Positions 39,660 to 62,955 of a DNA stretch of 64,000 nt are shown one piece after another; positions within the stretch are counted from its first letter, which is position 1; each line of letters starts with the position of its first letter. The translations under genes and the position numbers were made by a program. Source of the DNA: Sphaerodactylus townsendi (lineage: Eukaryota); NCBI RefSeq assembly GCF_021028975.2, contig NC_059433.1:96348001-96412000 (forward strand). The letters are read 5' to 3'. The notes below the pieces were generated by a model. It was not told the DNA's origin. It did not search any database and worked only from the letters and a program-made list of their open reading frames with translations.

Positions 39660-39877
39660 TGTATTGTCGAAGGCTTTCATGGCCAGACTCAACTGGTTGT
39701 TGTGGGCTTTCCAAGCTGTGTGGCCGTGGTCTGGTAGATCAAGTTCCTAATGTTTAGCCTAACAAACTTCTCTCTGTGATACACCTCTGAAGATACCAGC
39801 CACAGATGCAGGCGAAACGTTAGGAACGAGATCTACCAGACCATGGGCACACATCCCAGAAAGCCCACAGCAACCAG
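39660..39877 (-). mobile_element. Fold-back Penelope-derived mini-element (inverted pLTR halves)
   Basis: Arms 39694-39750 and 39820-39878 are inverted. The 3' end GAAAGCCTTCGACAATACA is shared with 57092-57312. 12-bp TSD TTTCATGGCAGA at 39648-39659 and 39878-39889. Confidence 0.85.
39784..39824 (+). ncRNA. Minimal type I hammerhead ribozyme motif
   Basis: cct-CTGAAGA-taccagccacagatgcaggc-GAAACGTT-agg: CUGANGA and GAAA core, stem I cct/agg, stem II gcc/ggc, palindromic AACGTT helix III. Confidence 0.7.
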
Positions 39878-40449
39878 TTTCATGGCAGAACTGATGCTAA
39901 AACTAGAATATTCTATTTTTCACTATTAAGCTCTCCACAAGGTCATCACAGTCTTTCTTGCTGATTCGCTATCTTTATCTGATGTTATTTCTGCAGATTC
40001 CAGTAGGCTGAATGACAACAAGGCTTCCATTTGGTTGGTTTCTCCACATTTTCCCTTCCCAAATCTCATACTGCTGTGGAAAATCAGAGACAAGAGACAG
40101 TCACAGACATTGTTTCCATGGATTGATTTGCCCACATCCAGATTCAAATAAAGCTCAAGGTCAAAGTAGCTGGAGCAGGAAAGTCAGGCAATACGGGGAG
40201 CACCAGGCAGAGCTTATTTATTTGATGCCTCACTTGCTATTCAGCTTCTTACTATTCAATCTTCTTTGAACTGTCTAAAATAAATTCAGGTCTTGAAGTT
40301 CATTATTGGACTGAATAGATATGAAAATATCTTATACCTTTCTTGCATGTTATCTGGATGTAGTACCATTTTTTCTCTGGACTCATGTCTGACAGACCTG
40401 ACCCAATAGTTCATCATACTGATGTGGTTCAGGCATATCAGATTACATA

Positions 40450-42160: not shown

Positions 42161-43303
42161 CATAAGAACATAAGAACATAAGAACAAGCCAGCTGGATCA
42201 GACCAAAGTCCATCTAGTCCAGCTCTCTGCTACTCGCAGTGGCCCACCAGGTGCCTTTGGGAGCTCACATGTAGGATGTGAAAGCAATGGCCTTCTGCGG
42301 CTGTTGCTCCCAATCACCTGGTCTGTTAAGGCATTTGCAATCTCAGATCAAGGAGGATCAAGATTGGTAGCCATAAATCGACTTCTCCTCCATAAATCCA
42401 TCCAAGCCCCTTTTAAAGCTATCCAGGTTAGTGGCCATCACCACCTCCTGTGGCAGCATATTCCAAACACCAATCACACGTTGCGTGAAGAAGTGTTTCC
42501 TTTTATTAGTCCTAATTCTTCCCCCCAGCATTTTCAATGAATGCCCCCTGGTTCTAGTATTGTGAGAAAGAGAGAAAAATTTCTCTCTGTCAACATTTTC
42601 TACCCCATGCATAATTTTGTAGACTTCAATCATATCCCCCCCTCAGCCGCCTCCTCTCCAAACTAAAGAGTCCCAAACGCTGCAGCCTCTCCTCATAGGG
42701 AAGGTGCTCCAGTCCCTCAATCATCCTCGTTGCCCTTCTCTGCACTTTTTCTATCTCCTCAATATCCTTTTTGAGATGCGGCGACCAGAACTGGACACAG
42801 TACTTCAAGTGCGGTCGCACCACTGCTTTATATAAGGGCATGACAATCTTTGCAGTTTTATTATCAATTCCTTTCCTAATTATCCCCAGCATAGAGTTTG
42901 CCTTTTTTACAGCTGCCATGCATTGAGTTGACATTCCCATGGAACTATCAACTAAAACGCCTAAATCCCTTTCCTGGTCTGTGACTGATAGCACTGACCC
43001 CTGTAGCGTGTATGTGAAGTTTGGATTTTTTGCCCCTATGTGCATCACTTTACATTTTGCTACATTGAACTGCATTTGCCATTTCTGAGCCCACTCACCT
43101 AATTTATCAAGGTCCGCTTGGAGCTCTTCGCAATCCTTTGTGGTTCTCACCACCCTACATAATTTGGTATCATCTGCAAACTTGGCCACCACGCTACCCG
43201 CCCCTACTTCCAGGTCATTTATGAATAGGTTAAAGAGCACTGGTCCCAAAACAGATCCTTGGGGGACACCACTCCCGACATCTCTCCATTGTGAAAACTT
43301 CCC
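42161..43303 (-). mobile_element. Young 5'-truncated CR1 LINE
   Basis: ORFs 42626-43309 and 42358-42633 give GVPQGSVLGPVLFN, KFADDTKL, RPHLKYCVQFWSP and GVWNMLP, broken only by one extra G in a G run. 3'UTR and (TTCTTATG)n tail present. Confidence 0.95.
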
Positions 43304-43759
43304 TTGCAAGTTTTTAATTTTTTAATTAATTAATTAATTTCATTTTTGTTTACATCCCACCTTTCTACCCAACAGAAAGTCAAAACAGTTTGTATCATTC
43401 TCCTATCCTGTTTTATCAAGCACTGATAGTTTAGGCTGACAACAGGGATATGTACATAAGCGTAAACACATACAAAAATGGCCTTTACCGTACAAACCAT
43501 TTACATAATTTCTAGCCTAATGAACATTTCCTCTATGAAGTTCCGCATGTTTTCCCCTCCCTGTTTAGTTCTGAAAATGTTTCCAAGCATCTTTTGCCTC
43601 GTTTCTAAAAGCACTTTTACTGCATTATTTTCACTGAAACATTTCTGAGTTAGCTTCCCTCATAATGTGAATATACTTGAAGTGATTTTTTCCATGGTTG
43701 AGTTGTTATCCATGCTCATTGTGTAATTGCCTAACCTCTTTTTTGGTGCTTGCTTCACA

Positions 43760-45215: not shown

Positions 45216-45981
45216 CTAACAAAACACACTAATATCACAGTAATATCAAAGTGTTATGCAAAATGTTATAAACCAATCAGCTCTAATAAACAAAAAGAAT
45301 ACAGCCCAATAACACAGCAACAGCAATCTGAAATATCAATTAAAAATGGCGAGAACACACAAGAAAAGACACACAGCACAGAAGCAGTAAAAAAAAAGAA
45401 AATATTTTCATGTAATTTCAAAGGCCTCCTTAGCTTAAATTGCACTAGATGGCTAAAAGAGAAGGGGATAGCTATACTGGCACAGGAAATTACACAGGAT
45501 GGTTCACCATTGAGAAGGTTCACCATTCTCATCTGTAATAATGAAGCTTTCACAATAGGGTGCCATTGGGTGGTATCAAGTACTCAGTAGGTTCACATGA
45601 GTGAGTGCAATGTATTGGTTACTTTCATCAAAGATAATTATGACTATAAAGAACATTTGACTACCCACTCAGTGAGAAAGAATTGCCAAGGTATGTGTAT
45701 AACATGCCTTTTTTTGTCCCTTCCCCTTATGTTGCTGTTTTGGGCCTTCTTCTTTTGCTCAGTTTCATTGGTAGTATTTTATGCCATTTCCCACAATACT
45801 ACACCATTTATATCTTAACAAGAGAGGGACTAGTGAAGGCTCAGGCTCATGGGAGAAAGGAAAACCCTATCCTCACTCATTTTGTCTCTCTGTGGCTCTA
45901 TCTCCATTCCCTCTCTCAGACTTTTACTCTTTTCTTTATAACTTTTCTCCAAGTTTTCCTTTTCAATCTTCTTTCTTGGCT

Positions 45982-46575
45982 AGTAGTGAAAAGGTACACT
46001 CTGCATACCAATGAGATAACGTGAATCTTATGAATATTAATGAGGCGGATCAATTAATTTGCATATTTTCATGAATATTGAGGAACTCAGACCATACCCT
46101 CTGAGGTCACTGGTAATGACAATACCATGCCCCCAGATATCAAAGGGAGGCATGGGTCACACCTCCGAAATCACTGGAAGTGCATCATCTGAGAATGACA
46201 TCCCTTTCCCTGTGTCACAGGATGTGATATGCTTGCATATATATGTGGACCGCATCCCTGAACCACTGGAAGTCCTGTGACCAGGCCATAACTCCTTCCA
46301 TGTCACAGGAAGTAATGGGGCACCTTGAATACTAATTATGCGATTTCCATATTCAGCCAAATCCCTTCCCCATCTCAGACTCAGAAAGGACATGTCTAAT
46401 CCCACCCCTGCTATATCACCAGATGCTGTTTCTCTAGAGCCGTAGTGGCGAACCTTTGGCACTCCAGATGTTATGGACTACAATTCCCATCAGCCCCTGC
46501 CAGCATGCTACAACATTGAATTACCACCTGCACTGCCCTATCCCAGAAAGGGAACATCCACCAGAGTATGCCCAT
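45982..46575 (+). repeat. Maverick left TIR (contains a hAT MITE half at 46440-46507)
   Basis: Aligns by eye to the reverse complement of ~49095-49631 along its whole length. Confidence 0.85.
46440..46507 (+). mobile_element. Left half of a palindromic hAT (Charlie-type) MITE
   Basis: Follows the target CTCTAGAG (46432-46439) and is the inverse of 47160-47229. Absent from the right TIR. Confidence 0.8.
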
Positions 46576-47036
46576 GAGACCTTTCCAGCAGAACATCTGT
46601 AGCTGTATGTTTTGGGGCCAGCCAACGTGAACTCAGTGATATGCTTGTTTGGTGGGATCTCGCTTGTGAAGTCACCTAAACAATCCCGCAGGGGCATTCC
46701 AGTCCCCTTTCCTACTGACAAATATCACAGAATTGGTACCATGATACAAGCAGTGATCTTGAAGCTTATCTAAGGTGTTAAAAAGTTTTGGCCGGGCGTA
46801 AGCATTTGTAAAACAGGCATTGGTTTTCCCTGTCAAAGTGACTAAATCTTTTGCATGTTTCCAGGAAATGGTTGCTGTTTCGTCACCAGTTATATAAAAG
46901 CCGGAGTCCTGTTAGAGAAAAGGAATATTCTAAAAGTTTGGTTGCATCCTTCACTAAGTTGGTATTTACCAGATTTGAACATAGGATAAACTTGCCCCAC
47001 AAAGATTTAAACTCTTTAAATTGTGTAAATACTTTG
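46575..47036 (-). pseudogene. Protein-primed DNA polymerase B fragment (Maverick pPolB)
   Basis: Minus strand reads KSLWGKF (motif B), YARPKLF, CLYHGTNSVIF (degenerate YxDTDS) and LGDFTSEI..ITEFTLAGPKTYSY (KxY). Frameshifted and truncated at both ends. Confidence 0.9.
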
Positions 47037-48000
47037 CAGCTTGTCAATATGTTTCTTAAATTGCAGTGCCCAGAACTGAACACAGTACTCTAGGTGAGGT
47101 CTGACCAATGCAGAGTAGAGTGGTACAATTACTTCTCTCAGTCTAGACCCGTGCAATTGGCCATGCTGGCAGGGGCTGATGGGAATTGTAGTCCACAACA
47201 TCTGGAATGCCAAAGGTTCGCCACCACTAGTCTAGACAGTATACTCTTATTGATGCAACCCAGAATTGCACTAGCTTTCTTGGCTGCCATATCACACTGC
47301 TGGCTCAGTTTCTGTTTGTGGTCTACTAAGACTCCCAGACCCATTTTCACATGTAGTGTTGTCAAGCCAGGTTCCACGCATCTTATATCTGTGCATTTCA
47401 TTTTGTTTTGCCTAAGTATAGAATCTTTCATTTATCTCTGCTGAAATTCATTTTGTTAGTTTTGGTCCAGCTCTCTAATCTGTCCAGATCATTTTGAATC
47501 CTGCCTCTGTCCTCCAGGGTATTAGCTACCCCTCCTATTTTGGTGTCATCTGCAAATTTGATTAACATGCCCTCTATTTCATTATCCAAGTCATTGATAA
47601 AAATATTGAATAGCACTGGGCCCAGGACAGAACCCTGTGGCACTCCACTACTCTCCAGGTTGAAAACAAGGCATTGATGAGCACTCTTTGTGTTCGGCCA
47701 GTCAACCAATTACAAATCTATCTTAACAGTTGCATTGTCTAGTCCACATCTTTCCTTGTCAAAGGCCTGCAAGGTATGCTACATCCACACCATTCCCTTC
47801 ATCTACCAAGTTTGTCACTTTATCAAAAAAAGAGATAAGATCAGTCTGGCATGACCTGTTTTTGAGAAACCCATGTTGATTTTCAGTGATTGTTTTATTC
47901 CCTTCCAAGTGCTTACAGACTATCTCCTTAATGATCTGTTCTAGAATCTTTCCTGGTATTGAGGAAAGGTTGACTGGGCATAGTTTTTTGGGTCCTCTTT
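47037..48000 (-). mobile_element. CR1 LINE fragment nested in the Maverick
   Basis: PVNLSSIPGKILEQII, QHGFLKNRSCQTDL, GVPQGSVLGPVLFNIFINDLD, KFADDTK and [11 protein letters not shown]. 3' end deleted. Confidence 0.92.
47149..47229 (-). mobile_element. hAT (Charlie-type) MITE lacking most of one arm, nested in CR1
   Basis: 8-bp TSD GTCTAGAC at 47141-47148 and 47230-47237. Confidence 0.85.
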
Positions 48001-48097
48001 TTGAATGGGCAAATGAGGACAAAATGGATGGGCAAATGAGGTAACCAGCATTAAAATAGAGCTTGTGTCCATTTTGTCACAAACTTTTTGTCCATTA

Positions 48098-48700
48098 TTA
48101 TCTCAGTCCCCAGTTTACACATTCATGACTGGTTTGGCCTGGAACTTCCATGACACATCCTTCACAGGAATCCAACAGGTATTCTTTAATGCAGTGATTC
48201 AGGATGCTGTACATTGTGGTTCTTATAATAGTTTTCATAGTCTCTTCACACTTCTGTGATGGAATAAAATCCACATATGCATTGATTTTCAAGTGCAAAA
48301 GGTTTCTCACAGCCGTGAGACTTACAAAGGGACTCATTCCAAATAATACTGCAGCTCCTGGTGGTGCTTGCTCCTTTAAAAAAGATGTAAGAGTACATTT
48401 TAAGTTTTTCCAAGCAGGGAGAAATGTTTAACATACTCCTTTACCCATCCACCCCCTTAAACCCCCCTAGGGCCTTACCTGTTTGAGAATGTTCTTTGCC
48501 GGAGAAACACAAGTAAGTTTCAGAGAGAGCTAGCTTTGGCGTTACAGAGGCATTGCCTATAGGAAGCTAGAAAATAAAGAGCATGTTTTACTAAACGTTC
48601 TGTGCATAGCTTGTATTCAATACCCAGCTGTTTTTTCTGTCCCCCCTTCCCTTCCAGCTTCCAAATTACCTGTGTGTGTGACATCTCTGATGGAATCAGT
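48098..48700 (-). pseudogene. Remnant of a Maverick accessory gene, apparently spliced, with a CxxC...HxC motif
   Basis: ORF 48098-48337 ends ...LLDSCEGCVMEVPGQTSHECVNW. Upstream are a donor CAG|GTAATT (48670), an acceptor TTTATTTTCTAG| (48567) and a donor CAG|GTAAGG (48479). Confidence 0.45.
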
Positions 48701-49094
48701 TCCTGGGAATTTGAATAATCAACCAGTATCCCCTCCAAGATTTGGGAAACTATAATTTCAGGCCGTGTTTCTGGATTTGCTGCTCCATTATTGAGGCCAG
48801 TTCACACCTCATCTTCAAGCACCAGTGTGGGGAAATGGAGCCTTTTAGGCACAGATTCTTCCTCCTTCTCATTGCTCATACAAGGCCTTTTAAAGTTAAG
48901 CCTCAGTAATGGTGGCAGACTGGTGAATACCAAAGGCTGGACAGGAGTTTCAAATGTTCTTACCAAGAGCCCAAGAAGCCATGTTCTTGCCTAAGCGAGT
49001 GTTTCCTAGCAGAAATGGATTTTTTCCCTAAAACCACCTATTTGGGGGCGGGTTACAGGCTCTTTGCTATTGGGGTGGGGAGGGGGTGTTGCTG

Positions 49095-49631
49095 GAGAGG
49101 CATACTGTGGCATTACCACTGGTGGATGCTTCCTTTCTGGGGTGGGGCCATGCAGGCAGTAATTAAATGATTCAGCACTGGGTGGCTCCAGAGAAATAGC
49201 AACTTCCAGTGTTGTGGTGGGGGTGGGATTAGACACTGTCCAGATCCAGGGTGGGAAAGGGGTTTGGCCGAATATGGAAATCACTTAATTAGTGTGTGTG
49301 GTGTCCCTGTAACTTCCTGTGACATGTGAGGGGGTATGGCCTGATCACAGGACTTCTCTTGGTGTCAGGGGTGTGTTCACATATGTACGCATGCACATCA
49401 CATCCAGTATTGCAGGGAAAGGGATGTCATATCCAGATGATGCGCTTCTAGTGTTGTCAGGAGGTGTGACCAACACCTTTTCCATGACAATGTCATTTCC
49501 AGTGACATCAGGGGATGCAATCTGAGTTTGTCAATATCCACGAAAATATGCAAATTAATTGTTTCACTTCATTAATCTCCATAAATATGCAGATTACCTC
49601 ACTAGTATGCATATCATACCCTTTAACTACT
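49095..49631 (-). repeat. Maverick right TIR
   Basis: Inverted match to 45982-46575, ending in ACTACT. Confidence 0.85.
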
Positions 49632-52208
49632 CTGACTTGTTTGTGCATCTGTCCATTTGTCCACTTTCCTGCTTAATTCACTGCTCTTTTCGCATCTGGT
49701 CTTTCCTCCTTTTACATGCTTTCTACCCACCCACACGATCTCCTGTTCACTCACCTGTTCAGTCTGCTTTGCTCCTATTCTTCTACCTGTTCAGTTTTTC
49801 ATTCACTGCAAAGTGGTAGAGAAGCAAGCTACAAGGTAAGATAACCTGTGGCCTCCCCATCATATGATTAAGATGGCCATTGCCACCAAATTATCATGCA
49901 AAGATGAACTGAGGTGCACAGCTTGCTTACGCCCTTAATAAGCAAACAATGGCGAGATGTCAGTCATTTAGGTGGAATGTAATGTTTGTCCCTCCTGTTA
50001 CTGGACCTTAAAGACTGGGTACAGCTAGACATAAGAGTATTATGGTGCAAATTGAATGATTTTTGTCTCTTGGCTCACACCCTGTGGTTTGCAGCTCATG
50101 GTCTTAATAAACTGCCCAAATGGATCCAAGTCCAGCCCAGCATACGGTAGTTTTTGAAGATTGTTTGTTTTTGCTGCTTGTTTATTTACATTGTATATTG
50201 TTTATTTCAGTGGCATTGGAATTCTTGTAAACTGCTTGAGGTCCCTAAGCAGAGAAAAGTGAAATAAGAAACACCCCAGGTAAGGCCGTATGGGGTTGAC
50301 ATCAGTTAGTTTTGACTTGACAGCAAAAAAAGTAGATACTACATGGTTACATTCTAAGCAACCTCTAGTTCTTATTTCTGGACAACAAATGAGTCTTTGA
50401 ATCATGGCAAAGTGGAAACCGGAAAGAAACCTTCAATGCAAATGTAGACAGGCAAATTCAGAAGTAGAGATAAAACCAATAACAGTAAAGCCAATACTTG
50501 TCACTCAAGTGAATGAGGAGCTATGCTTTAGTCAAGCAACTTATGCCTACATCTTGGAAAGAATACTGTACATGACTCTTGGATAATTTGTGTTTCTGAT
50601 CATTCATGTTTTTCAAGAATTGGAGCTTAGCTTTTATTGATTTTCATCGCACCCTGCTATTTGCTAGTCAGATTCATAGCTGTCTCCCCATCTTCTCTCA
50701 GACATGTAAAATATCCTTTCTAATCTTTACTGATAGACCCAATTACAAAAATAAGATAACTCTGTTATTAAGAACTTTAATATAATAAATCAAGCCATAA
50801 ATAACCTTAAAGGACTCCTGTACCGAGCTGTACTTAACATATGCTTCATTAAGTAGAGTTTATAAATTATACAGCCTTTCTCTCTGATTCGCAGAATTTC
50901 TATTTCACTGAAAGAGCCCTATTTCAAACAATACTATAACGTCAAACCAATAAAAAAGCCTCTTTTAATGGAAGGTGTTATATATTTCATAAATATTGCA
51001 TTCAAATTGCTTTTGCCACTTTAAATTTTAATTGCCATGAAAATGTTCAATAACTCATCTAGTCCATGCTATATTTTCAAATTTCACATTATCTCCCCAC
51101 TAAATACTTTAAATAGTAGCTAAATATTATTTGTCTTTTTAAAGGCACAATTTATCCTTTAAAAATCTGCCAATTAAGTTTTAGGAAATGAAATGCATCT
51201 ATGAAGGCTACCTTGTATTACTTAAAATTTGATAGGCTGAAAATGTGATGGCAGCATTTGGCTAACAGTTTTGAAGCCTCTTTCTCCCTTTATCTGTGAA
51301 TCATCCTTTAAAATTGAAAATGATTTCCTTCTCTTTGGGCACTGGTGATACTGTAAGAAGGCTCATTGGAAACATTGCATTCTCCTTGAATACACTGTAG
51401 GAATGTGCTTTAGAGAGAGCAGAGTAGTGCCAGAGTGATACCGTCCCCAGTCACTTGCCTGTTCTGGATTGGGCTGTAAATGATACCACACAAAAGGCAT
51501 TTGCCTTCATGTCTTCTGACTCTGTGCTTCCCTTACCATTTTTCTGTCATCTAAGAAAAAAGCCCTATCTGCAGCTACCACCTTACATGGGGAAATAAGA
51601 TGTATCATTAAGGGAAATTTCATGCTTGCAAAAAAATAAATAAATAAGGCCTCAAAAGTGTTGCACACTTCTCCAGCTTGTTCAAAGGGACTCTCCAAGC
51701 CACACCTATCATATCAATTTCTATGCCTAAAAAGGGTTAAGTATCTAGACAGGTCTTCAGTCTTTTCAGCTGCCAAAGGAACTCCAAGTTCCTTCACCAA
51801 CCCTGCAAAGCTCACCATGAACAAAGCACATTCTCCCAAGTCACTTGGGTCAGCAAACAACACCCCCCCCATCCAAATAACACATCACATGCACTGATCC
51901 CGCATTTTCCTTAATTGTCACTTCTACCATGGTACTACAGCTCAAAAGTTGAGCATGAGATGGAACATTCCATGGGTAATGTCTTATCAAAATAAAAATG
52001 GCCTTCAAATTGAAAACCCAGTAAATCAAAGTTGTGAGGATGTGCAGGGAGAAGCCAAAATGTCACACTTTCCCAAACATGGTACCTTCCCATAGGACAG
52101 CACCATGGCAACTGCCGAATCAACAGACACTTTCCTGGACAGAGTGTAACTCCTCAGGTATCCCATCATTTACGGTTTTACCTCATGGAAATGCCAAGTA
52201 ATGAATTA

Positions 52209-55665: not shown

Positions 55666-57091
55666 CACAAAGATAATTGTTGAGGGGCCATCTCACTAAA
55701 CCTCCTACATATCTAACTTCAATGGATCATTCATATACAATCTTTTTATAAGTGTGGGGTTTCAGGTGTCCATGTCCCAATGTCCAAAGCTTGGGCAATA
55801 AAAAGGAAGAGCTTGAGCTTCTCATGCAGATGGGGATATGATTTAGTAGATGTTACAGTGACTTGTTGGGATGAGTCCAATGACCAGAATGTAGTAGTGG
55901 ATGAATATGAGTTATTCAATAAAAAAGGACTGAAGAGGAGGAAGAGTGGCATTGCACATGAGGAGAGGATTTACTTGTCAGGAAATACTGGAAAAGGCAG
56001 GTGACAGTCCAGTGGGAAGGATCTGGGTGAGGATAAGGGAAGGAAGAACTAATAGTATTATGGTTGGACTCTGCTATGGACCACTTGACCAAGGTTAGGA
56101 AGTGGATGCTGCCCTCTTTTTGCAGCTTGACAGACTAATCAGGCAACATGACCTTATAGTTATAAGTGACTTCAATTTCCTTGATGTGAGCTGGGAGACC
56201 AACTCTGCTAAATGTTCACAGTCATGCAACTTCCTGACTGCCTGACCAACAACTTCCTTTTTTCAAATAATGGAGGAAGCTGTGAGAAGCTTGGCCATAT
56301 TCCACTTAACAATATGTAAGAATTGGTAGATGGGGGAAAGGTGCTTGGGACCCTAGAGAGAAGTGACCATGTTCTTTAGAATTTCCTTTGCAGTGGGAGA
56401 CCAAAGAAGTTCATGGCCAGATATGTATGTTAGATTTTAGTAGGGCAGACTAGTAGGGCAGAATTCAGAGCCATGATGAGAGTCATTCCATGGGCAAGAA
56501 TTCTGAAAGGAAAAGGAGGAAGTAATGAGTGGGTTCTCCCAAAACAAGAGTTCTTGCTATCAGTATTCCAACCAGATAGAAACATGGCAGGGGATCCAAG
56601 AAGCCAAAGTAGATGAACAGAGAACTACATGATAAGCTAAGGGAGAAAAAGGAAATGTTCAAGAAATGGAAGCAAGGACATACCTTTAAAGAAGAGTATC
56701 TGAGGGTTGCTATGCACTGTAGGTCAGCCATCAGAAAGACCAAAGCTCAGAATAAGCTGAAGCTGCCCAGGGAAGCTTGCTACAAGAAAAGCTTCTTCAG
56801 ATAAGTGAGGAGCAAACACAAATGAAGCAATAGGCCCACTAGTGGGTGGAAATGGATACATTCTAACAGGCAGAAAGAAAGCAGAAAGGCTCAATGTCTA
56901 TTTTGCCTCAGTTTTTTTCCCCTGAAGAGAATGACCTAATTTTGAAATGGTAGTTGGCAAATCACAGTGTCCAAGCTGCTGGTAGACATGGACAGAGAGG
57001 TTGTTAAGAAGCACCTAGATACATCAGATGGGTATGAATCTTATGGGCCAGACAGTATGCACCTGAGAGTGCTCTAAGAATTTTCTAGAAT

Positions 57092-57312
57092 TGGGTGCTG
57101 TGTGGTTTCGGGGCTGTATGGTCGAGTTCTAGCAGCATTCTCTCCTGACATTTCGTCTGCATCTGTGGCTGGCATCTTCAGAGGATCTGGTGTGATTGCC
57201 AGCCACAGATGCAGGTGAAACAGCAGGAGAGAATGCTGCTAGAACACGGCCATACAGCCCGGAAACCACACAGCACCCCAGTGATTCTGGCCGTGAAAGC
57301 CTTCAACAATAT
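57092..57312 (+). mobile_element. Fold-back Penelope-derived mini-element nested in CR1
   Basis: ~85-bp inverted arms. 13-bp TSD AATTTTCTAGAAT at 57079-57091 and 57313-57325. Confidence 0.88.
57144..57184 (-). ncRNA. Minimal hammerhead ribozyme motif (CpG-decayed)
   Basis: Minus strand reads cct-CTGAAGA-tgccagccacagatgcagac-GAAATGTC-agg. Confidence 0.6.
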
Positions 57313-62139: not shown

Positions 62140-62955
62140 TCTATTCTGCACAGCACAAATAAGATGTCCTGAGGATGGGGAAAAAGACATCTCCCCATAG
62201 CTTTCCCCCCCAAGATGTCCTCAGAATGCCTTATTTCAGCTTGAACCTTTTTTTGGAAGTTGTGAAAATTTGGACTTTTTTCCTGAAGTCATCTGCAAGT
62301 CATCTCCTGCTTCCTATGTGGAGTTCAGGAGCTGAGGAGACGTCTTATTTTTTCCACCAAACGGTTAAAGCTCTCTGGTCAGTTTCGTCTGTGGCTCACA
62401 CCTGACATTTTATGCTGTTGCACAGATTCTCCATGCCTGCAGCTTTTTGCTTCAGGTTTCTCTGGGACATTTGTTCTGCAGGTTCCACTGCAAGGTGCCT
62501 TTTCTACCTGCAAAGTACATGGTTGTACTCAGTTCATCCTGCCAATTCCAGCAATATATAGTTTCCCCTTTTTTAAAGTTTTTGATGAGCTGTCTTCAAA
62601 GATACACAGACACAATTTCAGAATCCATGCTGATTTTCATATCGTGTCTTCATGCTTTCAAAGACAGCTCATCAAAAATAAAAAAGGAAAAACTATATAT
62701 TGCCAGAATCGACAGGATAAGCTGTATACAACCATGCATTTTTCAAGATGAAAAGGCACCCAGTATTGGAGTCTGCAGAGCAAACATCCGGGATAACCTT
62801 CACCAAATAGCTGCACGAATGGAGAATCCTTGCCACACAAAATGTCAAGCATGAAAGTTTTAAACTTGGGCAGGAGGAAATGGCAGGCATGGGGAAATTA
62901 GGAAGTGGCTTTTTTAAAGATGTCCCCAGGACATCTTATTTGTGCTGTGCATAAT
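62140..62955. mobile_element. Long fold-back MITE (Harbinger-like ends)
   Basis: 33-bp TIR ATTCTGCACAGCACAAATAAGATGTCCTGAGGA / TCCCCAGGACATCTTATTTGTGCTGTGCATAAT. Inner arms ~62400-62602 and ~62656-62850 are inverted. Confidence 0.8.

What the first reader, a model, noticed from the sequence alone, without database searches (positions are those of the whole stretch)
45982..49631. Endogenous Maverick/Polinton virus-like element reduced to a 3.6-kb relic with both ends intact
Seen: AGTAGT/ACTACT termini, a degenerate 6-bp TSD, ~530-bp TIRs (roughly three-quarters identical by eye) and pPolB motifs joined directly to the left TIR. Known: full Mavericks are ~15-20 kb and encode integrase, ATPase, protease and capsid proteins, none of which I can detect here. 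Inference: an ancient insertion in a host intron that lost the whole morphogenesis/integrase module, either in place or as a non-autonomous derivative mobilised in trans. TIR divergence could date it.
Basis: partly seen in the sequence, partly recalled or inferred. Interest (0 to 1): 0.7.

Follow-up and report, generated by a model that had tools for sequence, protein, structure and literature searches.

The report
Decayed Maverick virus fossil in lizard
This is a broken 3.6-kb remnant of an ancient Maverick DNA virus that kept both ends and likely decayed where it landed, an ordinary fossil except that it holds part of an unnamed viral gene predicted to be spliced.

Summary
The relic is real. 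It has AGTAGT/ACTACT termini, ~600-bp TIRs (420 of 530 aligned sites identical, K2P 0.25), a 4/6 target-site duplication and a ~143-codon piece of Maverick pPolB (49% identical to an open pPolB in the same genome) abutting the left TIR. Only ~2.6 kb is Maverick. The non-autonomous-family idea fails its own test: the TIR-pPolB junction was found nowhere else, and 16 sister loci carry different deletions. Contigs of two related organisms (~1% and ~3% diverged) have the same site and junctions, with no sign of constraint. So this is a fossil that likely decayed in place, roughly 50-155 My old depending on the rate; 96% of vertebrate Mavericks are such fossils. 'Host intron' could not be verified. 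By-product: the accessory gene belongs to a Pfam-less, mostly reptile family with a Cys/His motif. A 74-105-nt GT-AG intron is predicted at the same place in 10 of 12 scored copies, although intact vertebrate Mavericks were reported as intronless.

The parts
45976..45981 (+). left target-site duplication copy (TTGGCT)
   Evidence: 4/6 match to the right copy
45982..46590 (+). left TIR (integrase-side end), starts AGTAGT; interrupted by a MITE; its inner ~60 bp were probably lost in the large deletion
   Evidence: sister copies keep TIR homology to the position equivalent to ~49030
46440..46505 (+). half of a palindromic hAT-like MITE inserted into the left TIR after an 8-bp CTCTAGAG site; absent in organism C
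   Evidence: run X6 record 8 skips 46441-46505; 'hAT-like' inferred from the 8-bp duplication
46573..46594 (.). deletion junction 1 (pPolB joined to TIR) with roughly 8-11 bp of imperfect overlap between TIR-like and pPolB-like sequence
   Evidence: unique in the genome; present in organisms B and C
46591..47005 (-). broken pPolB fragment, about aa 826-969 of 1056; frameshifted; the catalytic YxDTDS motif reads YHGTNS
   Evidence: tblastn vs C590 pPolB E 9e-26; C590 pPolB is PF03175 E 3.7e-40
47034..47997 (-). CR1-type LINE fragment (RT region), cut at its 3' side where it meets pPolB (deletion junction 2, ~47006-47033)
   Evidence: RVT_1 E 1.1e-11; alignments to other copies; the 'CR1' label rests on recalled motif similarity
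47149..47229 (-). second MITE half inside the CR1, flanked by an exact 8-bp duplication GTCTAGAC
48012..48373 (-). predicted last exon of the accessory gene, with the C-x8-C-x2-C-x9-H-x-C motif; cut off by the CR1 insert
   Evidence: 33 homologous clusters, best E 1.3e-15
48374..48478 (-). predicted 105-nt GT-AG intron; donor ranks 3 of 3196 GT sites on this strand of the window
48479..48669 (-). candidate middle exon (48566/48556-48479) and candidate first intron (48669-48567); exon phase not resolved in this decayed copy
48670..48960 (-). predicted first exon of the accessory gene (acidic, low-complexity N-terminus; one in-frame stop)
   Evidence: Gekko japonicus XP_015263967.1 aa 5-96 align to 48948-48670, E 3.6e-14
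49090..49631 (+). right TIR (pPolB-side end), ends ACTACT; true inner edge probably near 49030
49632..49637 (+). right target-site duplication copy (CTGACT)

Best explanation
This is a dead, single-copy fossil of a vertebrate Maverick (Polinton) that likely integrated at near full length in one old burst and likely decayed in place through a CR1 insertion, two large deletions and two MITE insertions. Shown: both TIRs, termini, the pPolB piece, the inserts, the unique junctions, and presence at the same site in two related organisms. Inferred order: (1) integrase-mediated insertion with a 6-bp duplication; (2) a CR1 LINE lands in the last exon of the accessory gene; (3) a deletion removes the CR1 3' end, the end of the accessory gene and ~825 pPolB codons; (4) at an unknown time a second deletion, with short microhomology, removes everything from the pPolB C-terminus to just inside the far TIR (ATPase, PM, PZ, protease, capsids, integrase); (5) after the split from organism C a MITE enters the left TIR. 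It now does nothing detectable and drifts neutrally.
For: pPolB points away from the accessory-side TIR, as in intact elements whose modules point to the centre (PMC8097293) and as in the long sister copy L046/L077. Junction 1: 3 matches in the genome, only the window itself spans it. 7 of 16 sister loci have core-gene remnants, each with other breakpoints: L039 keeps ATPase-PM-PZ in a 3.4-kb two-TIR relic, L042 keeps pPolB to aa 693, L044 to aa 365, L040 joins the accessory region to PM. TIR distances are star-like: own left vs right 0.249, to 8 TIRs at 7 other loci 0.22-0.38, among those 0.21-0.31. Orthologous filled site with the same junctions in organisms B and C; the left MITE is missing in C. 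Divergence to C inside the element (45/1236, 27/597) is not lower than in flank-rich pieces (16/750, 61/1878, 66/2601).
Against: Deletion 1 cannot be placed before or after integration. No empty site was seen in any run. Genome DNA searches give lower bounds (header), so very diverged copies of the junction could be missed. The TSD is only 4/6. At least three sister copies also lost the whole virion/integrase side, which may reflect search bias, selection against long inserts, or a tendency of the virus to make such deletions.
Confidence: 0.8

Rival explanations
1. Deletion 1 happened in the free, replicating virus: a defective genome keeping both termini was integrated once in trans by a helper's integrase, then decayed further.
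For: Both ends are kept; short microhomology at junction 1 would fit template switching; L039, L042 and L044 also lack the virion/integrase side.
Against: Microhomology equally fits host end-joining; deletion 2 cuts a host LINE, showing that kilobase deletions happened at this locus; sister loci were found by TIR search, which favours end-retaining relics.
Confidence: 0.13
2. It is one copy of an amplified non-autonomous Maverick family mobilised in trans.
For: Intact termini, a TSD-like flank, and younger Mavericks with open pPolB frames in the same genome.
Against: Junction unique; sister loci differ in content; TIRs are 21% diverged; C590 shows no blastn match to the element's Maverick-derived parts.
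Confidence: 0.04
3. The relic has been exapted by the host as a regulatory element or exon.
For: Fixed in three organisms; strong splice signals remain in the right arm; a ~100-bp stretch (48669-48567) is more alike among copies (mean 0.82) than its neighbours (0.68-0.75).
Against: Divergence to organism C inside the element is as high as in flanks; all frames are broken; the better-kept stretch lies in bins with few CpG-type changes and is better kept in all copies, which points to mutation bias or selection in the virus.
Confidence: 0.03

Closest known systems
Vertebrate Mavericks/Polintons, genomic fossils (Barreat & Katzourakis 2021, PMC8097293; read: first two of eight parts and keyword passages)
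   Same: (AGT)2//(ACT)2 termini, TIR within 46-1447 bp, 6-bp TSD, pPolB pointing inward from an accessory region, low copy number, degraded state (96% of 3,511 loci).
   Different: About 2.6 kb of Maverick sequence against a mean of 16.9 kb; seven of the eight core genes gone; both TIRs still discernible (2,166 of their loci had none); a predicted spliced accessory gene, whereas the paper saw no introns in genes of intact elements.
Anolis carolinensis Polinton (Novick et al., PMC3014272; read: keyword passages)
   Same: Lizard host, 584-bp TIR, 6-bp TSD, fewer than 10 copies, no non-autonomous copies seen.
   Different: Anolis copies are young with intact ORFs; this family is old (TIR K2P about 0.25) and every fetched copy is broken.
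Beta adintovirus 'Oncoid' genes (Starrett et al., PMC8502044; read: keyword passages)
   Same: Small gene upstream of PolB with a CxxC motif, near the terminus.
   Different: No LxCxE in any frame of this copy or four sister copies; the paper has no occurrence of 'splic'; homology to its Oncoids was not tested.
Adenovirus E1A (recalled, no call)
   Same: Terminus-proximal, spliced gene with an acidic disordered N-terminus and a zinc-binding region.
   Different: No Pfam, PDB-profile or fold match to E1A or anything else; analogy of position only.

Membership tests
Vertebrate Maverick/Polinton (fossil) | Long TIRs | tested here: met
   420/530 sites, score 486 vs shuffle maximum 49
Vertebrate Maverick/Polinton (fossil) | (AGT)2//(ACT)2 end motifs | tested here: met
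   motif defined in PMC8097293
Vertebrate Maverick/Polinton (fossil) | 6-bp target-site duplication | tested here: inconclusive
   4/6; chance 0.048, expected 0.89 if real; no empty site seen
Vertebrate Maverick/Polinton (fossil) | Maverick-type protein-primed PolB | tested here: met
   49-50% to C590 pPolB, E 9e-26, which is PF03175 and lies on a contig with an rve integrase, chromodomain and ATPase-like ORF; no tree with outgroups was built
Vertebrate Maverick/Polinton (fossil) | Family linkage to integrase/ATPase/capsid modules | tested here: met
   Sister loci sharing the TIR carry ATPase, PM, PZ and capsid/protease-like remnants (L039, L040, L046/L077); PM, PZ, capsid and protease names are my reading of synteny, not Pfam hits
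Intact (autonomous) Maverick | Eight open core genes | tested here: not met
   Only a frameshifted pPolB piece; 15 other probes gave no hit
Non-autonomous Maverick family | Several dispersed copies sharing one internal junction | tested here: not met
   1 of 3 matches spans the junction, the window itself; counts are lower bounds
Adintovirus Oncoid gene | Position upstream of PolB and CxxC motif | tested here: met
   homologues lie 4-6 kb upstream of pPolB hits, same strand, at four further loci
Adintovirus Oncoid gene | LxCxE Rb-binding motif | tested here: not met
   none in six frames of the window region or of four sister copies; the copies are decayed, so loss is possible
Adenovirus E1A family | Sequence or fold homology | tested here: inconclusive
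   no significant match in Pfam, PDB profile, Foldseek or VIA-align; absence does not exclude

The most novel reading that the evidence does not exclude
Reptile Mavericks carry a conserved, so far unnamed, intron-containing early gene between the TIR and pPolB. It encodes an acidic disordered arm plus an all-helical zinc-binding domain with no known fold match, is spliced like adenoviral early genes, and is mis-filed in databases as dozens of 'uncharacterized' host genes. The relic preserves an old copy of it.
Probability: 0.5. Interest if true: 0.5.

Novelty: new member of a known kind. Interest (0 to 1): 0.27.

Why it matters
The relic itself is one more degraded Maverick; its use is as a dated, orthologous marker for a burst of Maverick insertion in this lizard lineage and as a small record of how such inserts shrink. 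The by-product matters more: if the accessory gene is really spliced, vertebrate Mavericks use host splicing for a terminus-proximal gene, as adenoviruses do, which revises the 'intronless' description and gives a defined protein family (about 33 clusters, reptiles and a gar) whose host target can be tested.

Tried and rejected
Pfam on 12 open pieces of the element found only RVT_1; the 79-aa pPolB piece had no PDB or word-index database hit, so the pPolB call rests on same-genome comparison. The word-index search missed the accessory ORF; the HMMER library found it. Atlas look-alikes for a gecko homologue were all under 0.9 (HEAT-like, low-confidence model): no use. The AlphaFold model of that homologue (mean pLDDT 76.7; residues ~120-265 mostly above 90) had no Foldseek match at E<=0.001 in PDB or BFVD and a best VIA Z of 5.8; several TnpB/Cas12f/Fanzor chains appear at Z about 5, within the helical background. 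No RNA holder listed, so expression is untested. Organisms E and F gave no piece across a junction; an F contig aligned in patches of the left flank and not on the TIR, but at that divergence this is inconclusive. Host gene: exon scans with approximate, recalled splice-site weights and Pfam on 10 of the 32 long frames found no host coding exon. Rfam: none. No viral-contig scan was achieved for the accessory family. Earlier scan notes: nothing found in four look-ups. Literature: searches listed no paper on spliced vertebrate Maverick genes; I saw listings and keyword passages only, no supplements, and Kapitonov & Jurka 2006 was not available, so annotated genome maps in supplements (e.g. of PMC8502044) might already show this gene or its intron.

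Full report
Observation. The element runs from AGTAGT at 45982 to ACTACT ending at 49631. The two ends align as inverted repeats over 45982-46590 and 49631-49090 with 420 of 530 sites identical, K2P 0.248, score 486 against at most 49 in 200 shuffles. The flanking hexamers TTGGCT and CTGACT match at 4 of 6; that happens by chance in 4.8% of local pairs and is expected in 89% of true duplications at this divergence. End motif, TIR length and 6-bp duplication fit vertebrate Mavericks (PMC8097293).

Polymerase. The open pieces at 46521-47089 had no Pfam hit, and the PF03175 search of the genome found 14 matches, none here. One of those, on contig C590, is an open 1056-aa pPolB (PF03175 E 3.7e-40) on a contig that also has an rve integrase, a chromodomain and an ATPase-like ORF. 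It matches the relic in three frames over aa 826-979 at 49-50% (E 9e-26); the other 15 probes from C590 found nothing in the window. The catalytic motif reads YHGTNS where C590 has YYDTDS. So about 14% of a Maverick pPolB is left, and it is dead. No tree with outgroups was built.

Positions ~47034-47997 are a LINE fragment (RVT_1 E 1.1e-11; CR1 by recalled motifs) whose 3' part is cut where it meets pPolB. Two halves of a palindromic MITE sit in the left TIR and in the CR1, the latter with an exact 8-bp duplication. Positions ~48012-48960 hold a broken accessory gene. Removing the inserts leaves about 2.6 kb of Maverick against a mean of 16.9 kb for intact elements.

Family. Searches with the TIR and right arm gave 16 other loci at 63-87% identity, all fetched. 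Seven of the 16 have core-gene remnants, each with different breakpoints: L039 is a 3.4-kb two-TIR relic with ATPase-PM-PZ; L042 and L044 run pPolB (to aa 693 and 365) toward a TIR; L040 joins the accessory region to PM; L046/L077 is a long decayed copy in canonical order. The junction at ~46590 is spanned only by the window itself among 3 matches (lower bounds). Own left-right TIR distance (0.249; 0.23 without surviving CpG sites) is like the distances to and among other copies (0.21-0.38), as expected from one old burst followed by independent decay. Junction 1 shows roughly 8-11 bp of imperfect overlap between TIR and pPolB sequence, which suggests microhomology-mediated joining (inference).

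Orthology and order. Ten runs hold part of the region; seven were laid. In organism B (26 differences in 2637 bases) contigs bridge the left host junction, junction 1, the pPolB-CR1 junction and the CR1-accessory junction. In organism C (73 differences over 2433 bases in run X5) one X6 contig covers flank, left TIR, pPolB and the start of the CR1 but skips 46441-46505; other contigs bridge the CR1-accessory and right host junctions. Hence both deletions and the CR1 predate the split from C, and the left MITE is younger. Organism D gave one short piece inside the element; E and F gave none across a junction. Divergence to C inside the element (3.6%, 4.5%) is no lower than in flank-rich pieces (2.1-3.2%), so there is no sign of constraint.

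Age. The TIR distance is about eight times the distance to organism C. With 0.8e-9 per site per year (used in PMC8735750, passage seen) the insertion is about 145-155 My old; with about 2.3e-9 (my division of the anole path length 0.71 by 303 My, PMC5798147 passages) about 50-54 My. The rate for this lineage is unknown. The host was not identified; the nearest named homologues of the accessory gene are from geckos.

Setting. No host coding exon was recognised in the window, 20 kb to the left or 100 kb to the right. A GC-rich, promoter-like stretch near 900-1100 has a start codon plus donor on the minus strand and a donor on the plus strand, so a very long intron remains possible. The 'intron' claim is unverified.

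Accessory gene. The 109-aa frame at 48101-48427 hit 33 clusters at E<=0.001. Of the 20 looked up, 19 had names: mostly 'uncharacterized' or 'hypothetical' proteins of lizards and turtles plus one gar, several multi-copy (12 members in Gekko kuhli, 6 in Anolis). None of 19 scanned has a Pfam family for this domain. A Gekko model aligns in two blocks, aa 5-96 and 134-238. Four Cys and one His are 90-100% conserved. Homologues occur at 24 matches in this genome, four of them 4-6 kb upstream of a pPolB match on the same strand. Of 17 loci scanned, the motif was found in 12. Ten of these 12 have a 74-105-nt GT-AG intron candidate scoring above the 99th percentile of 290 random window sites. Nine of the ten are in phase 0, 186-207 nt before the motif; they fall by eye into about six distinct lineages. 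Against: two of the 12 score low, five of the nine phase-0 candidates have no stop in the intron, the weights are approximate, and no RNA data were available. A predicted model of a gecko homologue has a confident helical C-terminal domain and a disordered N-terminus with no fold match. PMC8097293 states that no introns were seen in genes of intact elements. PMC8502044 describes 'Oncoid' genes at this position, but LxCxE is absent here. The most likely role, by position and layout, is an early nuclear regulator like adenovirus E1A; that is inference (about 0.3).

Verdict. A genuine but ordinary Maverick fossil that likely decayed in place (0.8); integration of an already deleted genome 0.13; non-autonomous family 0.04; exaptation 0.03. 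New member of a known kind; interest 0.27, most of it from the predicted spliced accessory gene.

Noticed in passing
L039:3190-6600 (G000:C8:37581190-37584600): Second two-TIR relic of the same family, 3.4 kb, keeping ATPase-PM-PZ remnants instead of pPolB; TIR K2P 0.22; no clear TSD.
   Followed up: partly
L043:4558-5390 (G000:C4): About 0.85-kb remnant made of one TIR plus a ~70-bp inverted piece of the other.
   Followed up: partly
L069/L070 (G000:C590): Unplaced 18.9-kb contig with a younger, unrelated Maverick core: open pPolB, ATPase-like, PM/PZ-like ORFs; capsid-like and integrase genes appear split.
   Followed up: partly
L100-L113, L073, L074: Further accessory-gene homologues from several distinct Maverick lineages, some on small unplaced contigs with open frames; most share the predicted intron.
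   Followed up: partly
window 48546-48669 (minus): The frame of the first exon continues through the candidate first intron and ends at a stop shared by several sister copies, and this stretch is the best kept among copies: possibly an unspliced short product beside the spliced one.
   Followed up: partly
window 62403-62847: 445-bp imperfect palindrome (74% self-complementary), unidentified; two long frames over it have no Pfam hit.
   Followed up: partly
window 39662-39879 and 57089-57311: Two related ~200-bp palindromic MITE-like elements (69% alike).
   Followed up: no
window 900-1100: GC-rich promoter-like stretch with an NRF1-like GCGCATGCGC site (motif recalled), an ATG plus splice donor on the minus strand and a donor on the plus strand.
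   Followed up: no
window 7084-8822 and 42166-43321: Other LINE remnants (an RT-like run on the plus strand; a CR1-like piece on the minus strand), by eye.
   Followed up: no
P0016, P0024, P0029: Database gene models fuse this accessory domain to a turtle DMBT1 model and to a pPolB piece, or name it ERCC-6-like in gar: probably annotation artefacts of embedded Mavericks.
   Followed up: no
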